Of a stretch of 37,692 nt of DNA, positions 3,150-33,373 are shown one piece after another (positions within the stretch are counted from its first letter, which is position 1; each line of letters opens with the position of its first letter). A model generated the notes under the pieces. It was not told the origin of the DNA. It saw nothing but the letters and a program-made list of their open reading frames with translations, and did not search any database. The stretch comes from a virus (taxonomy: Duplodnaviria > Heunggongvirae > Uroviricota > Caudoviricetes), in the IMG/VR virus record IMGVR_UViG_2645727775_000019, positions 1 to 37,692 of that record; one strand, written 5' to 3'. The translations under genes were made by a program, and so were the position numbers.

Positions 3150-3581
3150 CTATTCATCTGGAAAGGTTGGCCATATCACATGCTCTGGATCGGTTGAGAC
3201 ATTGATAGATTTAACGTCATTTTTAAATGCCAACCACGCCGACAGTTTCTCCTTGTTGGTGTCGTTGATTTCACCGAGCATCAGTTCTGTTCGCCAGTCG
3301 AGCATAGTTTCGTCCGCATGTGCCAGCAGTTGCTGGCGAATTTGTTCAGCGGCAGCAATAAGTTCGTCGTGTGTCGGTGGAGGCATATCCCCCCAGGCAG
3401 GATGTCCATCATCACCCGCGATGCGTACTTTCCCTTGCAACGTTCTGTCTTCAATAAATTCCAGGTAAGTGTCATATGTCACTTCGACAATATCAGCAAG
3501 TTCCCATCCGGCCTGTTCATGTTTCGCCACATCATTTTTAGCGAAAAAACTATTATTTGAGGCGCTATAAACCATTTCCAT
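3150..3581 (-). CDS. Tail fiber assembly protein (Tfa)
   Basis: 143 aa; start 1 nt after tail fiber stop; C-terminal region resembles Tfa chaperones. Confidence 0.8.
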   Translation of the reverse strand: MEMVYSASNNSFFAKNDVAKHEQAGWELADIVEVTYDTYLEFIEDRTLQGKVRIAGDDGHPAWGDMPPPTHDELIAAAEQIRQQLLAHADETMLDWRTELMLGEINDTNKEKLSAWLAFKNDVKSINVSTDPEHVIWPTFPDE

Positions 3582-3582
3582 A

Positions 3583-4374
3583 TTAATACCCTACTGCAAT
3601 ATAAAAAACTGATTCACCAGCGTCCTGAGAACCTACCCCCGGAACGCCAGACCAGGCTTTGTTAATGAATGCAAAACCGGTATTACTCAGATCAGATGCT
3701 CTGTACATCGGGCTGAACATCCAGTAGTTGGCTACATATGTTTGTCCGAAAACAATGCCATAGCACTGATTTGTAAATGGCGTAGAAAATAATTTTCCAC
3801 CAGTACCAGCGATAGTCCCGAATCGCATCTGGAACCCATTCGGGAAATTAATTCCGCCTGCCGGTGAAGACCAGTAAGACATATCAGGTATTTGCCCAGC
3901 ACTATTTCCCACGTTTTTTGTTGCAACGGTTCCTAACCCAAGATTAGCTCTTGCATCAGATTTATTTGTTAACTCATAAAGATTATTTTCCTTTTGAAGT
4001 GCTCCTGTTATGCGTAAATCATCACCAGCGGCAACGGTTCCGACTGTCGTGCCCACATCCCTTTTCGCCGCTTCTCCTAAACCAAGGTTTTCGAGAGCCG
4101 TTTGCACAGTGCCATCCGATTTGATATCGCCAAACGGATTCTTGCGGCTTAACAGCAGCGCACGAAGTGCGGTAAGCAGCTGGTCATGCCGCCCTTTCTC
4201 CAGGCTGGCACCGGAGGCCTCCACCACGCTACAAAGTTCTTCCTGCAACATGTCAAAGTAGTCATCATCCAGATCGGTGGCAGGCGTGCCAGTCTGGGGG
4301 TTACCACGGGTAAAACCGTTCTTACCCGCGCCGAACTTATCCTTCTGCGCGGTTTTCGTGTCTATACGATGCAT
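3583..4374 (-). CDS. Tail fiber protein (short, 263 aa)
   Basis: N-terminal [21 protein letters not shown] and repeated ANLGLG-type fiber motifs; position just upstream of Tfa. Confidence 0.75.
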
Positions 4375-23759: not shown

Positions 23760-23788
23760 AAAGTAAAAGCCCCGCACGATGGCGAGGC
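23760..23788 (-). terminator. Intrinsic terminator-like hairpin downstream of cargo gene X
   Basis: Minus strand GCCTCGCCATCGTGCGGGGC followed by TTTTACTTT. Confidence 0.5.
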
Positions 23789-23854
23789 TGTTAATTCTTT
23801 GTCGACCAACAAAGCTATGGCGACGATATCAGATTTACATGAAATATAAGCGTT

Positions 23855-29115: not shown

Positions 29116-30057
29116 TCACCCCCTGAATCCTGCCGGGATCTGGCTGTAGTCCACATTGTCGTAACTGGCTTTGAAGTACGGGTCTTCACGTTTTTCTGTG
29201 TGCGTGCTGACGGACGGCGATAAGCGCAGGGAAAGCTCATCCCATTTTTCCCGCAACTTCGACGGGCTGAGCACGTTACGGCACCAGAACGGATCGCGGC
29301 TGACGCGGCTGTACATCTCGCAGATTTGTTTGTGAGTACGACCATCCTGCACACACATCAGGCGAATTTCGTTTGCCCAGGCTGTCCAGTTAGGTTCTTT
29401 GGGACGAACCACCTCGCCGTCACATTCGGCGGCCTGCTCGTACAGGGCGATGATTTTTTTCCAGAGCCACTGTGCGCAGGTCAAATCATCCTGCGTTCCC
29501 CACTGGCGCTTTTTAGGGCTGAATACAACCGCATCAGGATGGCGAGTTAAAAAATCCTGTTCATCCATCTGCGTGTCCGGTTGCGAAGCGTCCGGACGAG
29601 AAGGTTTTTTATCTGATGGATCATGTTTTGATTTTACTGACGGATCCCCGCCAGATTCTGACGGGTGAAAACCCGCTTTTTTGCCAGATTTCGACGCATC
29701 AAATTTTGACGGGTCAGATTTTGATGCGTCAGATTTTGACGGGTCAGAATCTGACAGTTGAGAAAATGCCGCTGCCTGAAGCTTCGCAACGTTAAGCTGA
29801 TAAACATTCGACGCATTGCGGTTACCCTGGCGACGCGCCTTACGCGTTAACCAGCCTTCTGCTTCCAGCCGTGCGATAGCCGTTCTGACGGTACTCATCC
29901 CCGCGCCAATCTGGCGGGCAATGGTTTCAATTGATGGCCAGCACACACCTTCGTCATTACTGAAATCAGCCAGGCGGGCCATAATTGCCACGCTGGATAA
30001 TTTCATGCCTGACGCTGCGCAACCATCCCATACATAGCCGGTTAATTTAGTGCTCAT
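29116..30057 (-). CDS. Replication initiator (lambda O-like, HTH N-terminal domain), origin embedded in gene
   Basis: 313 aa; N-terminal HTH replication-protein domain; central linker encoded by tandem DNA repeats (iterons). Confidence 0.7.
   Translation of the reverse strand: MSTKLTGYVWDGCAASGMKLSSVAIMARLADFSNDEGVCWPSIETIARQIGAGMSTVRTAIARLEAEGWLTRKARRQGNRNASNVYQLNVAKLQAAAFSQLSDSDPSKSDASKSDPSKFDASKSGKKAGFHPSESGGDPSVKSKHDPSDKKPSRPDASQPDTQMDEQDFLTRHPDAVVFSPKKRQWGTQDDLTCAQWLWKKIIALYEQAAECDGEVVRPKEPNWTAWANEIRLMCVQDGRTHKQICEMYSRVSRDPFWCRNVLSPSKLREKWDELSLRLSPSVSTHTEKREDPYFKASYDNVDYSQIPAGFRG
29653..29760. repeat. Iteron array (putative ori) inside the O-like gene
   Basis: Three perfect and at least two degenerate ~15-bp tandem units ATTTTGAC(G/A)(G/C)GTCAG, each with internal TGAC/GTCA symmetry; AT-rich stretch adjacent at ~29600-29645. 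Confidence 0.6.
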
Positions 30058-30226
30058 GACCGACCTCTATTTCCCTGAATTTACGACGAAACTGTTCGAG
30101 CGGACTGAAGCATTCATGCTCATAGCCTTCGCGGAGGTAGATAACCCGTTGTGTTTCCGGTTCCCAACGAATGACTCTGACGGGCACTCCGTAGTGATCT
30201 TTGAACCAGCGGTTAACTTGTCGCAA
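30047..30226 (-). CDS. Candidate DUF4222-like small protein (59 aa) in alternative frame, TTG start
   Basis: AGGAG 8 nt upstream of TTG; translation [59 protein letters not shown]; overlaps ORF 30067..30405. Confidence 0.4.
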
Positions 30227-30405
30227 AGGACTGTCTCCTTCTGCCGGTTGAAATCACCCACAGCCCACTCTGCAAAGCTGTGGGTTACAATTTCCCTGTC
30301 ACCTGGTACATTCACTGCATAGCAATATTCCACCTTCGCTTTTCCACCCGGAACAGGAAGCGCAATCAGTTGCGAGCGACGGTAGTGTGTTGTTAAACTG
30401 TTCAT
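30067..30405 (-). CDS. Hypothetical protein (ORF A); 3' portion probably not genuine coding
   Basis: ATG directly after the CII-like stop; first ~55 aa look protein-like, the remainder overlaps the alternative-frame small gene. Confidence 0.35.
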
Positions 30406-31293: not shown

Positions 31294-31968
31294 ATGAAAA
31301 CAATCCATGACATCCGGCGGTCTAACGCCAGAAAACTGAGAGATGGTGTTGGCGGGAATTCTTCCTTTGCCACTATGATTGATCGCGAGCCAACCCAGAC
31401 CAGCAGGTTTATGGGAGATGGTGCTACTAAAAATATCGGTGACAGCATGGCACGACACATCGAAAAATGTTTCGACCTACCTGTCGGATGGCTCGATCAA
31501 GAACACCAGACAACGAACATCACAAAAAAACCTGATGTTTCAATCACTAATAAACAAATCACATTAGTCCCTGTCATATCATGGGTACAGGCCGGAGCAT
31601 GGAAAGAAGTTGGATATTCTGAGGTTGATTTGAGCACAGCAGAAACGTATCCCTGCCCTGTACCCTGTGGGGAAATGACTTATATCTTGCGGGTGATAGG
31701 TGATTCAATGATTGATGAGTACCGCCCGGGAGACATGATTTTTGTCGATCCTGAAGTACCTGCCTGCCACGGTGACGACGTTATTGCATTGATGCACGAT
31801 ACAGGTGAAACCACCTTCAAAAGGTTAATAGAAGATGGGACACAGCGTTATCTCAAAGCGTTAAACCCAAACTGGCCTGAGCCTTACATTAAGATCAACG
31901 GTAATTGCTCTATAATTGGTACAGTGATTTTCTCAGGAAAACCAAGAAGATACAAAATCAAAGCCTAA
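31294..31968 (+). CDS. cI: CI-like repressor (HTH plus S24 autopeptidase domain)
   Basis: 224 aa; C-terminal GDSM Ser and FKRL Lys dyad intact. Confidence 0.85.
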   Translation: MKTIHDIRRSNARKLRDGVGGNSSFATMIDREPTQTSRFMGDGATKNIGDSMARHIEKCFDLPVGWLDQEHQTTNITKKPDVSITNKQITLVPVISWVQAGAWKEVGYSEVDLSTAETYPCPVPCGEMTYILRVIGDSMIDEYRPGDMIFVDPEVPACHGDDVIALMHDTGETTFKRLIEDGTQRYLKALNPNWPEPYIKINGNCSIIGTVIFSGKPRRYKIKA

Positions 31969-31980
31969 TCAATGTTTATG

Positions 31981-32004
31981 AACCTGCTTCGGCAGGTTTT
32001 TTTA
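31981..32004 (+). terminator. Intrinsic terminator after cI
   Basis: AACCTGC-TTCG-GCAGGTT hairpin followed by TTTTTTTAT. Confidence 0.7.
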
Positions 32005-32007
32005 TAC

Positions 32008-32036
32008 TTGACAATGTACCTTTGAGATACATAATG
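32008..32036 (+). promoter_or_regulatory. pL-like promoter with overlapping operator-like half sites
   Basis: TTGACA, 16-17 nt spacer, CATAAT/ATAATG; TGTAC half-sites similar to OR inside and beside the spacer. Confidence 0.5.
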
Positions 32037-32212
32037 TACCCAAGAGAAACAACGAACAGGCAGGACGCCCACGAAGTAGCCGCCTGGGGCATATGAAGTC
32101 CAGGATGATTCGTTGAGTCATGTTGTGCCACTAGGCACTCATGTTAAAGCAGGTGTATGAAATGAAAGTCCAGATTTTAAACAATAACTGTGAAGTCGTT
32201 TGGGCGTAAAAC

Positions 32213-32419
32213 ATGACCGCGCGTAGACCAAGGGAGGAAAAAGTGGGAATAGTTAGAAATCAAGCAGATATATTGAAAATCAGCTCTGAATTACTTGGAG
32301 TTTTGAAAAGTGAGCTCACCGCACATGGCATCGAGCCCACTGACGAAAATTTAAGATGGGTTTTGTCGATTATTCAACAATCACTCAAGCCCAGCCTCAG
32401 CAAACTTTTTATCGAGTAG
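32213..32419 (+). CDS. Hypothetical small protein (68 aa; alternative GTG start at 32243 with GGGAGG site)
   Basis: AT-rich; Arg-rich N-terminus MTARRPREEK; first gene after pL-like promoter. Confidence 0.4.
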   Translation: MTARRPREEKVGIVRNQADILKISSELLGVLKSELTAHGIEPTDENLRWVLSIIQQSLKPSLSKLFIE

Positions 32420-32572
32420 TGCTTCGAACTTATCGTAAAGCTTGCTTATGTCGTCTATCGGGTTTTCTGACGTACTGTAATTTTTATCTGATGTCATGGC
32501 AGCAGTCTGATATGCAGTGTGAGTCTTAACCGATAGTTGGAATAAATAAAGAATTTTTTCTTCTTTGGTCAT
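32381..32572 (-). CDS. Hypothetical small protein (63 aa), convergent and overlapping with previous
   Basis: ATG with AAGGAAA site; MTKEEKILYLFQLSVKTHTAY...; 39-nt 3' overlap with the plus-strand small gene. Confidence 0.4.
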   Translation of the reverse strand: MTKEEKILYLFQLSVKTHTAYQTAAMTSDKNYSTSENPIDDISKLYDKFEALLDKKFAEAGLE

Positions 32573-32682
32573 AACTATTTCCTTCTTGGCTATATGAAAA
32601 CACCAAGATACCACCGAGCCTGAAGTGGTGAAAAGACAGGCACATAACAGCTAAGTATTTTCAACCAAAGAGAATCCTTAGC

Positions 32683-32960
32683 GTTGTGGTGAATGCGGCT
32701 CAGCGCACGCGGGTTAAGGTTGAGGCTGACAGTCGACCTTCTGTGGATACCCACCCGTCTGGTGTGCAACCTTCGCCAGGCACCGGGAGGCACCCGGCAC
32801 CACAACTTTATGCTGTGTGTAGTCCTGGCGGTACCAGTTTGTACCCTTGCTTCCGGCTGGTACCGTCCTTTTTACAAAACAGAGAAGAGCATCACCGGAC
32901 GACGGGCTCATAACCCAATCCATCCGGGCGGCTGCCACCGCAGGTGTTCTTCTCTGTTTT
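32683..32960 (+). other. GC-rich non-coding segment with multiple long-range inverted repeats (candidate structured RNA or cis-regulatory element)
   Basis: GTTGTGGTG/CACCACAAC (9 bp), CGGTACCAG/CTGGTACCG (9 bp, then CCTTTTT), AAACAGAGAAGA/TCTTCTCTGTTT (12 bp); translations in all frames are not protein-like. Confidence 0.3.
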
Positions 32961-33010
32961 GTGGAGAAACTAATCGGCCTTGCAGGGTCGATATGATGAG
33001 GAGCAGCAAA

Positions 33011-33373
33011 ATGGCTAGCGAACGCAGTACTGATGTGCAGGCATTTATCGGGGAGCTGGACGGCGGCGTATTTGAAACCAAAATCGGCGCAGTTCTCAGT
33101 GAAGTCGCTTCCGGTGTGATGAACACGAAAACCAAAGGTAAGGTCTCACTCAACCTGGAAATCGAACCATTTGATGAGAACCGTGTGAAAATCAAACACA
33201 AACTCTCATATGTTCGCCCGACTAACCGCGGGAAAATTTCCGAAGAAGACACCACCGAAACGCCGATGTATGTCAATCGCGGTGGTCGCCTGACTATTCT
33301 GCAGGAAGACCAGGGACAGTTACTGACTCTTGCCGGTGAACCTGACGGAAAACTCCGCGCAGCAGGTCGTTAA
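33011..33373 (+). CDS. yfdP: YfdP-like prophage protein
   Basis: 120 aa from MASERS with AGGAG site; the ORF-track N-terminal extension is non-protein-like. Confidence 0.6.
   Translation: MASERSTDVQAFIGELDGGVFETKIGAVLSEVASGVMNTKTKGKVSLNLEIEPFDENRVKIKHKLSYVRPTNRGKISEEDTTETPMYVNRGGRLTILQEDQGQLLTLAGEPDGKLRAAGR

What the first reader, a model, noticed from the sequence alone, without database searches (positions are those of the whole stretch)
32040..32572. AT-rich islet after pL: two convergent, overlapping small genes
Where lambda has N and rex, this prophage has a low-GC block with a 58-68 aa plus-strand gene (Arg-rich N-terminus; GGGAGG-GTG or ATG start) and a 63-aa minus-strand gene (AAGGAAA-ATG) whose 3' ends overlap by 39 nt. 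Convergent overlapping small genes next to the immunity region are candidates for a toxin-antitoxin or exclusion module, or for antisense regulation. A 15-codon mini-ORF with an AGGTG site (32159-32206) precedes them.
Basis: seen in the sequence. Interest (0 to 1): 0.6.

Follow-up and report, generated by a model that had tools for sequence, protein, structure and literature searches.

The report
Convergent small-gene pair after pL
Just after the early promoter of this SfII/SfV-like prophage lie two real, tiny, tail-to-tail overlapping genes that are always inherited together in related prophages; their function is unknown, and one of them is missed by standard annotation.

Summary
The window is an SfII/SfV-like lambdoid prophage. 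After cI, its terminator and pL comes a 38.5% GC cassette with a plus-strand gene (32243-32419) and a minus-strand gene (32381-32572) that overlap by 39 nt.

Both are real genes. Homologues of each occur in 76 fetched loci from Escherichia/Shigella, Salmonella, Klebsiella, Kluyvera and Atlantibacter prophages. They are always together, always convergent, and overlapping wherever I read the coordinates. dN/dS is 0.04-0.5 in the non-overlapping parts.

Three corrections:
- The conserved plus start is GTG 32243 (58 aa).
- The Arg-rich extension and the mini-ORF are lineage-specific.
- The mini-ORF lies at 32162-32209.

Neither protein matches any known toxin, antitoxin, defence or N family. Both are predicted to be small soluble helical proteins.

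The plus gene is the first pL gene. The minus gene has its own promoter-like block, more conserved than the ORFs, that points towards pL. My best reading is a lysogen-state gene paired with an early lytic partner, coupled by convergent transcription. The function is inferred, possibly exclusion with self-immunity, and a classical TA system is unlikely.

Also inside the coordinates is a 64-nt covariation-supported leader RNA (32051-32114). It sits where some relatives carry an HK022 putL-like element.

The parts
31980..31999 (+). Intrinsic terminator-like hairpin that ends the cI transcript
   Evidence: 8-pair stem followed by a T run. Annotated as a putative rho-independent terminator at the same place in SfV.
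32008..32035 (+). pL-like early promoter (TTGACA, 16-nt spacer, CATAAT), flanked by TGTAC/GTACA operator-like repeats
   Evidence: 11 of 12 consensus matches. The repeats are read from the sequence. No transcription data.
32051..32114 (+). Conserved structured leader RNA at the 5' end of the pL transcript. Helix P1 pairs 32051-56 with 32109-14; helix P3 pairs 32083-87 with 32100-04; the centre is nearly invariant.
   Evidence: 85-100% identical downstream of pL promoters of different immunity types. Covariation: 5 pairs changed on both sides, 94% of cells paired against 17-49% when the partners are slid, 0 of 500 shuffles as good. Covariance model R1 scores 95.4 bits here and finds no second copy in the window. 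No Rfam match.
32141..32209 (+). Spacer with the mini-ORF (22 codons from ATG 32141; 15 codons from ATG 32162). It is in frame with the plus gene and closed by TAA 32207-32209.
   Evidence: The segment is missing from most lineages, where the leader abuts the plus gene's Shine-Dalgarno site. In some E. coli variants a 66-aa ClpX-type zinc-finger gene precedes it. In SfV it is fused to the annotated orf33. There is no evidence that it is translated.
32243..32419 (+). Plus gene, 58 aa (GTG start, Shine-Dalgarno GGGAGG at 32232-32237). It is the first protein gene of the pL transcript. PHROG 15476.
   Evidence: Start and Shine-Dalgarno site conserved across lineages. dN/dS 0.10-0.52 outside the overlap. 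41 homologues. AF2 model has helices at 7-27, 34-47 and 50-53, pLDDT 75. Not annotated by PGAP or in the SfII record.
32381..32572 (-). Minus gene, 63 aa (ATG 32572, Shine-Dalgarno AAGGAAA at 32578-32584). PHROG 2605, RefSeq WP_000159356.1, SfII_36.
   Evidence: dN/dS 0.04-0.28 outside the overlap. Homologues down to 37-41% identity are always paired with the plus gene. AF2 model is a helical hairpin, helices 3-27 and 38-59, pLDDT 78.
32381..32419 (.). 39-nt overlap of the two 3' ends
   Evidence: In the seven other lineages whose called gene coordinates I read, the overlap is 24 to 45 nt.
32573..32645 (-). Conserved promoter and 5'UTR block of the minus gene. Candidate -35 is TTCACC (32632..32627), then a 16-nt spacer, then an extended -10 TGgTATCTT (-10 hexamer 32610..32605). 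The 5'UTR contains CAUAUAGCCAAGAAGG here (CACACAGCCAAGAAGG in the other lineages).
   Evidence: About 70 nt that are more conserved than either ORF across all lineages, including those with only about 40% protein identity. The promoter call is my reading of the sequence: 8 of 12 consensus positions plus the TG, below the scan threshold.

Best explanation
This is a two-gene accessory module of SfII/SfV-like lambdoid prophages. It sits in a swap-in slot (window about 32115-32610) between a conserved pL leader RNA and a conserved backbone block.

Shown:
- Both genes encode small proteins under purifying selection.
- They are inherited as a pair.
- They always converge, and they overlap at their 3' ends wherever I read the coordinates.
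- The pair always lies directly downstream of the prophage repressor and early-promoter region.

Inferred from the anatomy:
- The 58-aa plus gene is the first gene of the pL transcript. It is therefore silent in the lysogen and made at once on induction or infection.
- The 63-aa minus gene is read from its own conserved extended -10 promoter, which fires towards pL, so it can be expressed in the lysogen.
- Because the two units converge, firing of the strong pL should shut the minus gene off through polymerase collision and a complementary transcript. In the lysogen, the minus transcript runs antisense across the plus gene and keeps leaky expression down.

Inferred function, the weakest step: the minus protein is a lysogen-state factor, most likely a superinfection-exclusion or host-modifying factor. 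The plus protein is its early lytic counter-factor, so that the prophage does not hinder its own lytic growth. This is the logic of sieB/esc and BstA/aba.
For: Real genes:
- dN/dS is 0.10-0.52 (plus) and 0.04-0.28 (minus) in the non-overlapping parts, with third-position changes dominating.
- A 6-codon in-frame insertion in the Klebsiella type keeps the frame.
- The start codon and Shine-Dalgarno site of each gene are conserved.

Coupling:
- 63 of 63 loci, then 76 of 76 loci, carry both genes in convergent orientation.
- The pairing persists where the plus domain is fused to other N-terminal modules (140-173 aa proteins) and the minus protein is 37-49% identical.

Position:
- The pair is always right after a cI-type repressor.
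- It is rare on plasmids: 3 of 72,556 records.

Opposite expression regimes:
- A near-consensus pL lies upstream.
- The leader RNA directly abuts the plus Shine-Dalgarno site in several lineages.
- The 70 nt upstream of the minus ATG are more conserved than the coding sequence and contain TTCACC-16-TGgTATCTT.
- The same backbone promoter region precedes a different minus-strand gene in SfV.

Slot character:
- Other phages carry unrelated cargo between the same leader and the same right-hand block: SfV, SfIV, PhiR29_1, Kati, mEp460_4F5.
- The repressor-proximal region of lambdoid phages is a recognised mosaic hotspot that holds rexAB and bstA (PMC8585504).
- A SieB-family gene sits in the same slot in locus L082.
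Against: - There are no transcription data. The minus promoter is a sequence reading with 8 of 12 consensus positions, and the scan did not list it.
- The conserved 70-nt block could instead be an RNA element of the pL transcript, or part of a divergent promoter for the neighbouring STnc100-like RNA.
- Neither protein matches any defence, toxin or anti-defence family. Fold searches gave nothing.
- Two acidic helical proteins of about 60 aa are unlikely effectors on their own.
- Alleles of the two genes can be recombined. L065 and L068 have near-identical plus genes (dN 0.03) but very different minus genes (dN 0.43). This argues against tight cognate protein-protein specificity.
- Physical linkage alone would keep two adjacent genes together over short evolutionary distances.
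Confidence: 0.45

Rival explanations
1. The pair belongs to the phage's own lysis-lysogeny or early-development control rather than to exclusion. The plus protein would be a small early modulator of a host machine, for example a protease or chaperone such as ClpXP, by analogy with lambda CIII acting on FtsH. The minus protein would be its lysogen-state antagonist or regulator.
For: The plus domain is repeatedly fused to, or directly preceded by, a ClpX-type C4 zinc-finger module (PF06689, E about 2e-5 to 3e-5, below Pfam's cut-off) in P0053, P0064, P0066 and in E. coli variants L018/L019. It occupies the first position in the pL operon, where early regulators sit. The pair is confined to prophages.
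Against: The window itself lacks the zinc-finger gene. The Pfam matches are under the gathering score. An LRVV-like stretch that recalls the SspB tail is not conserved (R is S in most E. coli-type sequences) and lies inside a predicted helix. There is no similarity to CIII.
Confidence: 0.2
2. These are two unrelated accessory genes (morons) that merely share a slot. One is an early gene and one a lysogen-expressed gene. They have no functional link, and the overlap reflects genome compaction.
For: The slot holds unrelated cargo in other phages. Plus and minus alleles recombine (L065 against L068). Neither protein has a known function.
Against: Co-occurrence and convergent arrangement hold in 76 of 76 loci, across lineages with only about 40% protein identity and across different domain architectures of the plus protein. 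Independent morons would be expected to occur singly at least sometimes.
Confidence: 0.2
3. The pair is a toxin-antitoxin system: one small protein is toxic and the other, or its antisense transcript, neutralises it.
For: Convergent genes with overlapping 3' ends resemble type I systems such as txpA/RatA or the Rac prophage ralR/ralA (recalled from the literature, not tested). The two genes are strictly co-inherited.
Against: Pfam, NCBIfam and PADLOC give no toxin or antitoxin match. Neither product is hydrophobic or membrane-like (sequence). The antisense partner is itself a protein gene under purifying selection. The genes are not co-transcribed as in type II systems. The pair is almost absent from plasmids and always lies at one fixed prophage position.
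Confidence: 0.1
4. Only one of the two ORFs is a gene, or neither is, and the other is a chance ORF in AT-rich DNA.
For: RefSeq/PGAP and the SfII record annotate only the minus gene. Single ORFs of this length arise in 37% of shuffles.
Against: The part of the plus gene that does not overlap the minus gene shows dN/dS of 0.10-0.5, in-frame indels and a conserved Shine-Dalgarno site and start across about 10 lineages. Its domain also occurs at the C-terminus of longer proteins.
Confidence: 0.03

Closest known systems
sieB/esc of phages P22 and lambda (superinfection exclusion with a phage-made escape function; recalled from the literature)
   Same: It is a lysogen-expressed gene inside or next to the pL operon. 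The phage makes its own antidote early in lytic growth. Antisense transcription is involved in P22. A SieB-family gene occupies the same slot in related locus L082.
   Different: There is no sequence relationship: no PF14163 hit. In sieB/esc the antidote is an in-frame internal product of the same gene; here the partner is a separate convergent gene. SieB is a membrane protein of about 190 aa, whereas these are soluble proteins of about 60 aa.
BstA/aba and rexAB: repressor-adjacent prophage defence, with self-immunity in the BstA case (PMC8585504)
   Same: Both lie in the mosaic hotspot next to the prophage repressor. Both face the need to spare the prophage's own lytic cycle.
   Different: bstA and rexAB lie between cI and pL and are co-transcribed with cI; this pair lies downstream of pL. 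The aba element is DNA, not a protein. There is no homology.
Type I toxin-antitoxin loci with convergent 3' overlap (txpA/RatA, bsrG/SR4; ralR/ralA in the Rac prophage; recalled from the literature)
   Same: They are small genes in prophages, with convergent units whose 3' ends overlap, so the transcripts are complementary.
   Different: Here both partners are conserved protein genes, and neither product is a hydrophobic toxin or a known nuclease.
Convergent-promoter switches and antisense control in temperate phages (pR/pL of coliphage 186; OOP RNA against the 3' end of lambda cII; recalled from the literature)
   Same: A strong lytic promoter and a weaker lysogenic promoter face each other, and the antisense overlap lies at the 3' end of a small early gene.
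   Different: In those systems the genes are the known switch regulators (cI/apl, cII). Here the CI/Cro switch is separate and the pair is accessory: it is present in only 63 of 5,426 complete E. coli genomes.
HK022 putL antiterminator RNA (PMC9378689), for the leader at 32051-32114
   Same: Both are about 65-70 nt, structured, immediately downstream of pL, and found in N-less lambdoid phages. Loci L066, L071 and L072 carry a putL-like sequence (83-84% identical to HK022 putL) at the same position upstream of the same gene pair. Terminator-like structures lie downstream: the end of the STnc100-like RNA.
   Different: The leader cannot be aligned to putL; only short words are shared. Covariation supports a closing helix around internal hairpins rather than two tandem stem-loops. 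There is no second, putR-like copy in the window. Function is untested.

Membership tests
Type II toxin-antitoxin system | Toxin and antitoxin are co-transcribed from one promoter on the same strand | tested here: not met
   The genes are on opposite strands and convergent in 76 of 76 loci.
Type II toxin-antitoxin system | A recognisable toxin domain, or an antitoxin DNA-binding domain | tested here: not met
   No Pfam, NCBIfam or PADLOC match at E<=1. No PDB sequence or fold match.
Type II toxin-antitoxin system | Growth arrest by one component that is rescued by the other | not testable with these tools
   This needs expression experiments.
Type I toxin-antitoxin system | A small hydrophobic (membrane) or otherwise toxic peptide | tested here: not met
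   Both sequences are charged, slightly acidic and lack any hydrophobic stretch. AF2 models are soluble helical hairpins.
Type I toxin-antitoxin system | The antitoxin is a non-coding antisense RNA | tested here: not met
   The antisense partner is a protein gene with dN/dS of 0.04-0.5.
Type I toxin-antitoxin system | Overlapping complementary transcripts | tested here: inconclusive
   The gene bodies overlap by 39 nt here, and by 24-45 nt in the seven other lineages read. The transcripts themselves were not measured.
Lambda N-type antiterminator | An N-terminal arginine-rich motif that binds a boxB hairpin | tested here: not met
   MTARRPREEK lies upstream of the conserved GTG start and is absent from all other lineages. 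There is no Pfam hit.
Known prophage defence or exclusion proteins (SieB, RexAB, BstA, PADLOC models) | Sequence membership in the family | tested here: not met
   No PADLOC or Pfam match.
Known prophage defence or exclusion proteins (SieB, RexAB, BstA, PADLOC models) | Expressed in the lysogen and blocks superinfecting phage | not testable with these tools
   Only the position in the repressor-proximal hotspot and a promoter-like conserved block support this.
HK022 put antiterminator RNA (for the leader 32051-32114) | Lies just downstream of an early promoter of an N-less lambdoid phage | tested here: met
   The leader starts about 16 nt after the pL -10 element. It holds the same position in 17 of 29 representative loci.
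HK022 put antiterminator RNA (for the leader 32051-32114) | The put sequence and its two tandem stem-loops | tested here: not met
   It cannot be aligned to HK022 putL. Covariation supports a different topology.
HK022 put antiterminator RNA (for the leader 32051-32114) | Promotes terminator read-through in cis; abolished by mutations in the RNA polymerase beta' zinc-binding domain | not testable with these tools
   This needs reporter or in vitro transcription assays.
Rfam STnc100 (RF02076), for 32661-32876 | Score at or above the gathering threshold of 47 bits | tested here: not met
   39.5 bits, E 7e-7, full-length match 1-206. It is a likely divergent relative (STnc100/PasD group, bioRxiv 10.64898/2026.05.13.724894).

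The most novel reading that the evidence does not exclude
The pair is a previously unrecognised kind of prophage exclusion module. Its effector is a lysogen-expressed 63-aa protein, and its self-immunity factor is a separately encoded 58-aa protein, the first product of pL. The choice between the two states is enforced by convergent, overlapping transcription. It sits behind a 64-nt leader that is a second, structurally distinct class of put-like cis-acting antiterminator RNA, widespread in N-less enterobacterial temperate phages.
Probability: 0.12. Interest if true: 0.75.

Novelty: new member of a known kind. Interest (0 to 1): 0.45.

Why it matters
If the pair works as proposed, it would be a compact example of how a prophage keeps a lysogen-state function from harming its own lytic cycle, using gene orientation as the switch.

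It would also give a function to two small-protein families (PHROG 15476 and 2605). They occur in prophages of at least six enterobacterial genera and are currently either 'hypothetical' or not annotated at all.

Independently of function, three results stand:
- The plus gene is a real small gene that PGAP and the SfII record miss.
- The slot between the leader and the backbone block is a defined cargo site for comparing prophage accessory genes.
- The covariation-supported leader RNA is a concrete candidate for RNA-mediated antitermination beyond HK022 put.

Tried and rejected
- **Family searches.** Pfam, NCBIfam and PADLOC scans of both proteins, and of the SfV cargo, gave nothing. PHROGs gave only 'unknown function' families.
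- **Structure.** AF2 models searched with Foldseek against PDB and BFVD, and PDB sequence-profile searches, gave no significant match. The best was YmgB/AriR at E 9.3, which I treat as noise.
- **N-like antiterminator.** Rejected, because the Arg-rich stretch lies outside the conserved ORF.
- **Mini-ORF as a conserved leader peptide.** Rejected as unsupported. It is absent from most lineages, identical where present, and one copy has a premature stop.
- **SfV 'transcription-termination immunity' (Roberts et al. 2007).** Considered because SfV is a close relative. The SfV record places its 'immunity region' (orf37) on the pR side, not here. The paper is not held.
- **Leader as HK022 put.** There is no alignable similarity, and the leader motif is not in the supplement text of PMC9378689. 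King et al. 2011 is not held, so I cannot exclude that the leader was listed there.
- **SspB-tail-like LRVV motif in the plus protein as a ClpX-binding peptide.** Rejected: the arginine is not conserved and the stretch is helical.
- **Second (putR-like) copy of the leader.** None found in the window.
- **Mobile TA-like distribution.** Rejected: only 3 plasmid records carry it, all phage-sized.

Full report
**Setting**

The window is a lambdoid prophage of the Shigella SfII/SfV type. Window positions 32047-32979 (query bases 88-1020 of 31960-33020) are 99.3% identical to phage SfII, and the flanks match SfV, SfIV and several E. coli phages.

cI (31294-31968, Peptidase_S24) is on the plus strand. 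The cro-like and cII-like genes are on the minus strand. cI is followed by a terminator-like hairpin (31980-31999) and a near-consensus promoter TTGACA-16-CATAAT (32008-32035) pointing rightwards. This is the pL position. The finding therefore starts at the 5' end of the early leftward-operon transcript.

**The observation**

The ORF list confirms a plus ORF ending at 32419 and a minus ORF from ATG 32572 to 32381, overlapping by 39 nt. The cassette is 38.5% GC, against 50.7% for the window and 54% for the block to its right.

ORFs of this size are not rare by chance. Any ORF of at least 58 codons appeared in 37% of shuffles, and a convergent overlapping pair in 1.4%. The case for real genes therefore rests on comparison with related sequences.

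**Mosaic structure**

I aligned the window with SfV and SfII and ran BLAST against further phages and contigs. These show three layers.

- A 64-nt element right after pL (32051-32114) is 85-100% identical in phages with different repressors and promoters.
- A block starting at about 32611 is shared by the same phages.
- The stretch between them is a slot with unrelated cargo in different phages.
  - SfV has an unannotated 81-aa minus-strand ORF plus the annotated orf33.
  - SfIV and Kati have a 144-aa minus-strand gene.
  - PhiR29_1 has a 242-aa minus-strand gene.
  - mEp460_4F5 has a plus-strand HTH protein.
  - ST64B has nothing annotated there.

**Both ORFs are genes**

Protein searches found 12 relatives of the minus protein. 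They found 3, and then 41, relatives of the plus protein.

I fetched the encoding contigs and IMG/VR loci. Homologues of both genes were present together in 63 of 63 loci, which gave 34 distinct sequences. After adding more distant lineages the count was 76 of 76, always convergent.

Nei-Gojobori estimates on the non-overlapping parts give dN/dS of 0.10-0.52 for the plus gene and 0.04-0.28 for the minus gene. Third-position differences dominate. The Klebsiella-type plus gene has a 6-codon in-frame insertion.

The plus gene is absent from the PGAP annotation of E. coli genomes and from the SfII record. Both annotate only the minus gene, as a hypothetical protein.

In the Atlantibacter, Kluyvera and several metagenomic lineages the leader is followed within 24-38 nt by an AGGGGG-type Shine-Dalgarno site and a GTG or ATG aligned with window GTG 32243. 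The conserved product is therefore 58 aa. ATG 32213 and the 'Arg-rich' MTARRPREEK are specific to the E. coli/Shigella lineage.

The mini-ORF is at 32162-32209 (or from ATG 32141). It is in frame with the plus gene and separated from it by one TAA. It is missing from most lineages. In some E. coli variants a 66-aa ClpX-type zinc-finger gene precedes it. In SfV it forms the start of the annotated orf33. Nothing supports its translation.

**Depth of the pairing**

A profile search of 1.8 billion representative proteins found the plus domain at the C-terminus of longer proteins (92-201 aa).

- Some have an N-terminal ClpX-type C4 zinc finger (PF06689, sub-threshold).
- Others have N-terminal modules that also exist as separate small phage proteins: PHROG 1744, 1363 and 5259.

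I fetched the contigs for two of these long versions, P0066 and P0055. In the loci where the upstream genes are visible, each sits downstream of an S24 repressor or the leader element. Each is followed by a convergent, overlapping homologue of the minus gene, 41-42% identical to the window's protein.

The overlap length varies from 24 to 45 nt in the lineages I read, but an overlap is always there.

**Conserved block upstream of the minus gene**

The roughly 70 nt upstream of the minus ATG are more conserved than either coding sequence across all these lineages. They contain TTCACC, a 16-nt spacer and TGgTATCTT on the minus strand. This is an extended -10 promoter by my reading (8 of 12 consensus positions, below the scan threshold). 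A conserved 5'UTR follows.

In SfV the upstream half of this block precedes a different minus-strand gene.

**What the proteins are**

No Pfam, NCBIfam or PADLOC family matches either protein. PHROGs places them in families 15476 and 2605, both of unknown function.

AlphaFold2 gives a helical hairpin for the minus protein (pLDDT 78). It gives two to three helices for the plus protein (pLDDT 75). Foldseek against PDB and BFVD, and PDB sequence profiles, give nothing significant.

Both proteins are charged, slightly acidic and lack hydrophobic segments.

The cassette is in 63 of 5,426 complete E. coli genomes. It is in only 3 of 72,556 plasmid records, all phage-sized and non-mobilizable.

**Interpretation**

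The shown facts are these: two real small genes, strict co-inheritance, a conserved convergent arrangement with overlap wherever read, a fixed position as the first cargo after pL, and a strongly conserved non-coding block upstream of the minus gene.

From this I infer opposite expression regimes. The plus gene is on the CI-repressed pL transcript. The minus gene is on its own promoter, which fires towards pL. Mutual antisense and collision effects would then be unavoidable if both promoters work.

The functional step is inference by position and logic only. It proposes a lysogen-state factor and its early lytic counter-factor, for example exclusion with self-immunity.

- The repressor-proximal region of lambdoid phages is a known mosaic hotspot that houses rexAB and bstA (PMC8585504).
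- A SieB-family gene occupies the same slot in L082.

Against tight cognate pairing, L065 and L068 have nearly identical plus genes but very different minus genes.

A competing reading is that the plus protein modulates a host machine such as ClpXP. It rests on the repeated zinc-finger fusions and neighbours. The window lacks that gene, and an LRVV-like motif is not conserved.

A classical toxin-antitoxin system is unlikely on orientation, protein character, lack of homology and distribution.

**The leader**

The first 75 nt of the finding's range are not part of the islet. The element at 32051-32114 forms a closing helix (32051-56 with 32109-14) and an internal hairpin (32083-87 with 32100-04).

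- Five pairs show changes on both sides across 18 distinct sequences.
- 94% of cells are paired, against 17-49% when the partners are slid.
- 0 of 500 shuffles reach the observed covariation.
- G-U pairs favour the plus strand, five cells to two.
- The element occurs in 49 phage records from Escherichia, Shigella, Salmonella, Klebsiella, Yersinia, Citrobacter, Pantoea, Pectobacterium and Providencia phages.
- It has no Rfam match.

It cannot be aligned to HK022 putL. However, three loci that carry the same gene pair (L066, L071, L072) have a putL-like sequence at that position instead, 83-84% identical to HK022 putL over 60-64 nt.

I found no N-like protein at the position where lambda has N. 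A terminator-like structure lies downstream at the end of the STnc100-like RNA, about 32866-32912. A put-like antitermination role is therefore a reasonable but untested hypothesis. There is no second copy in the window.

**Verdict**

It remains an accessory cassette of unknown function in a known mosaic hotspot, with no link to known toxin, defence or regulator families.

I rate it as a new member of a known kind, with interest 0.45. The higher-value but low-probability reading combines a new exclusion/self-immunity design with a new class of put-like leader RNA.

Noticed in passing
window 32051-32114 (+): A 64-nt structured leader RNA lies directly after pL. It is supported by covariation, widespread in temperate enterobacterial phages, has no Rfam family, and sits where some relatives carry an HK022 putL-like element. 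It is a candidate RNA antiterminator.
   Followed up: yes
window 32661-32876 (+): A full-length but sub-threshold match to Rfam STnc100 (39.5 bits against a gathering score of 47; E 7e-7). It ends in a terminator-like hairpin (GGTACCAG...CTGGTACCGTCCTTTTT, about 32866-32912). It belongs to the STnc100/PasD group of prophage sRNAs. Its possible promoter lies back-to-back with the minus-gene promoter.
   Followed up: partly
window 32869-32967 (+): A very stable long hairpin with a stem of about 25 bp: -51 kcal/mol, z-score -6.3 against shuffles. It lies between the STnc100-like element and yfdP (33011-33373) and is identical in SfV and SfII. Its function is unknown.
   Followed up: partly
window 23766-23839 (-): An isrJ Hfq-binding sRNA (Rfam RF01393) at 64.9 bits, above the gathering score of 37.
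   Followed up: no
L001 (SfV) 3182-3478 (+) and 3396-3641 (-): SfV's annotated orf33 starts in the non-conserved mini-ORF and may be a mis-call. An unannotated 81-aa minus-strand ORF with a good Shine-Dalgarno site lies behind the same conserved promoter region. Together they form another convergent overlapping pair (83 nt) in the same slot.
   Followed up: partly
L018/L019 and relatives (between leader and plus gene); proteins P0053, P0064, P0066: A 66-aa ClpX-type C4 zinc-finger gene often precedes the plus gene. In Klebsiella and other lineages it is fused to it in frame. This is a possible functional link of the plus domain to ClpX-like zinc-finger partners.
   Followed up: partly
L082 2105-3001: One Enterobacteriaceae prophage has the leader, then a SieB-family gene on the minus strand, then a partial second leader copy (30 bits), then a 140-aa plus-family gene.
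   Followed up: no
L011/L012/L013 (SfIV, PhiR29_1, Kati), minus strand upstream of their slot cargo: A direct repeat CTGGTTAT(T/C)(T/C)CCCAACAAC occurs twice between the conserved backbone block and the start of the 144-aa/242-aa minus-strand genes. It may be a regulatory site.
   Followed up: no
window 30047-30405 (-), compared with SfV orf37 'immunity region' (L001 616-1452): In the SfV record the gene after the cII-like gene is labelled 'immunity region' (transcription-termination immunity, Roberts et al. 2007). The window has different small ORFs at that position, as does SfII.
   Followed up: no
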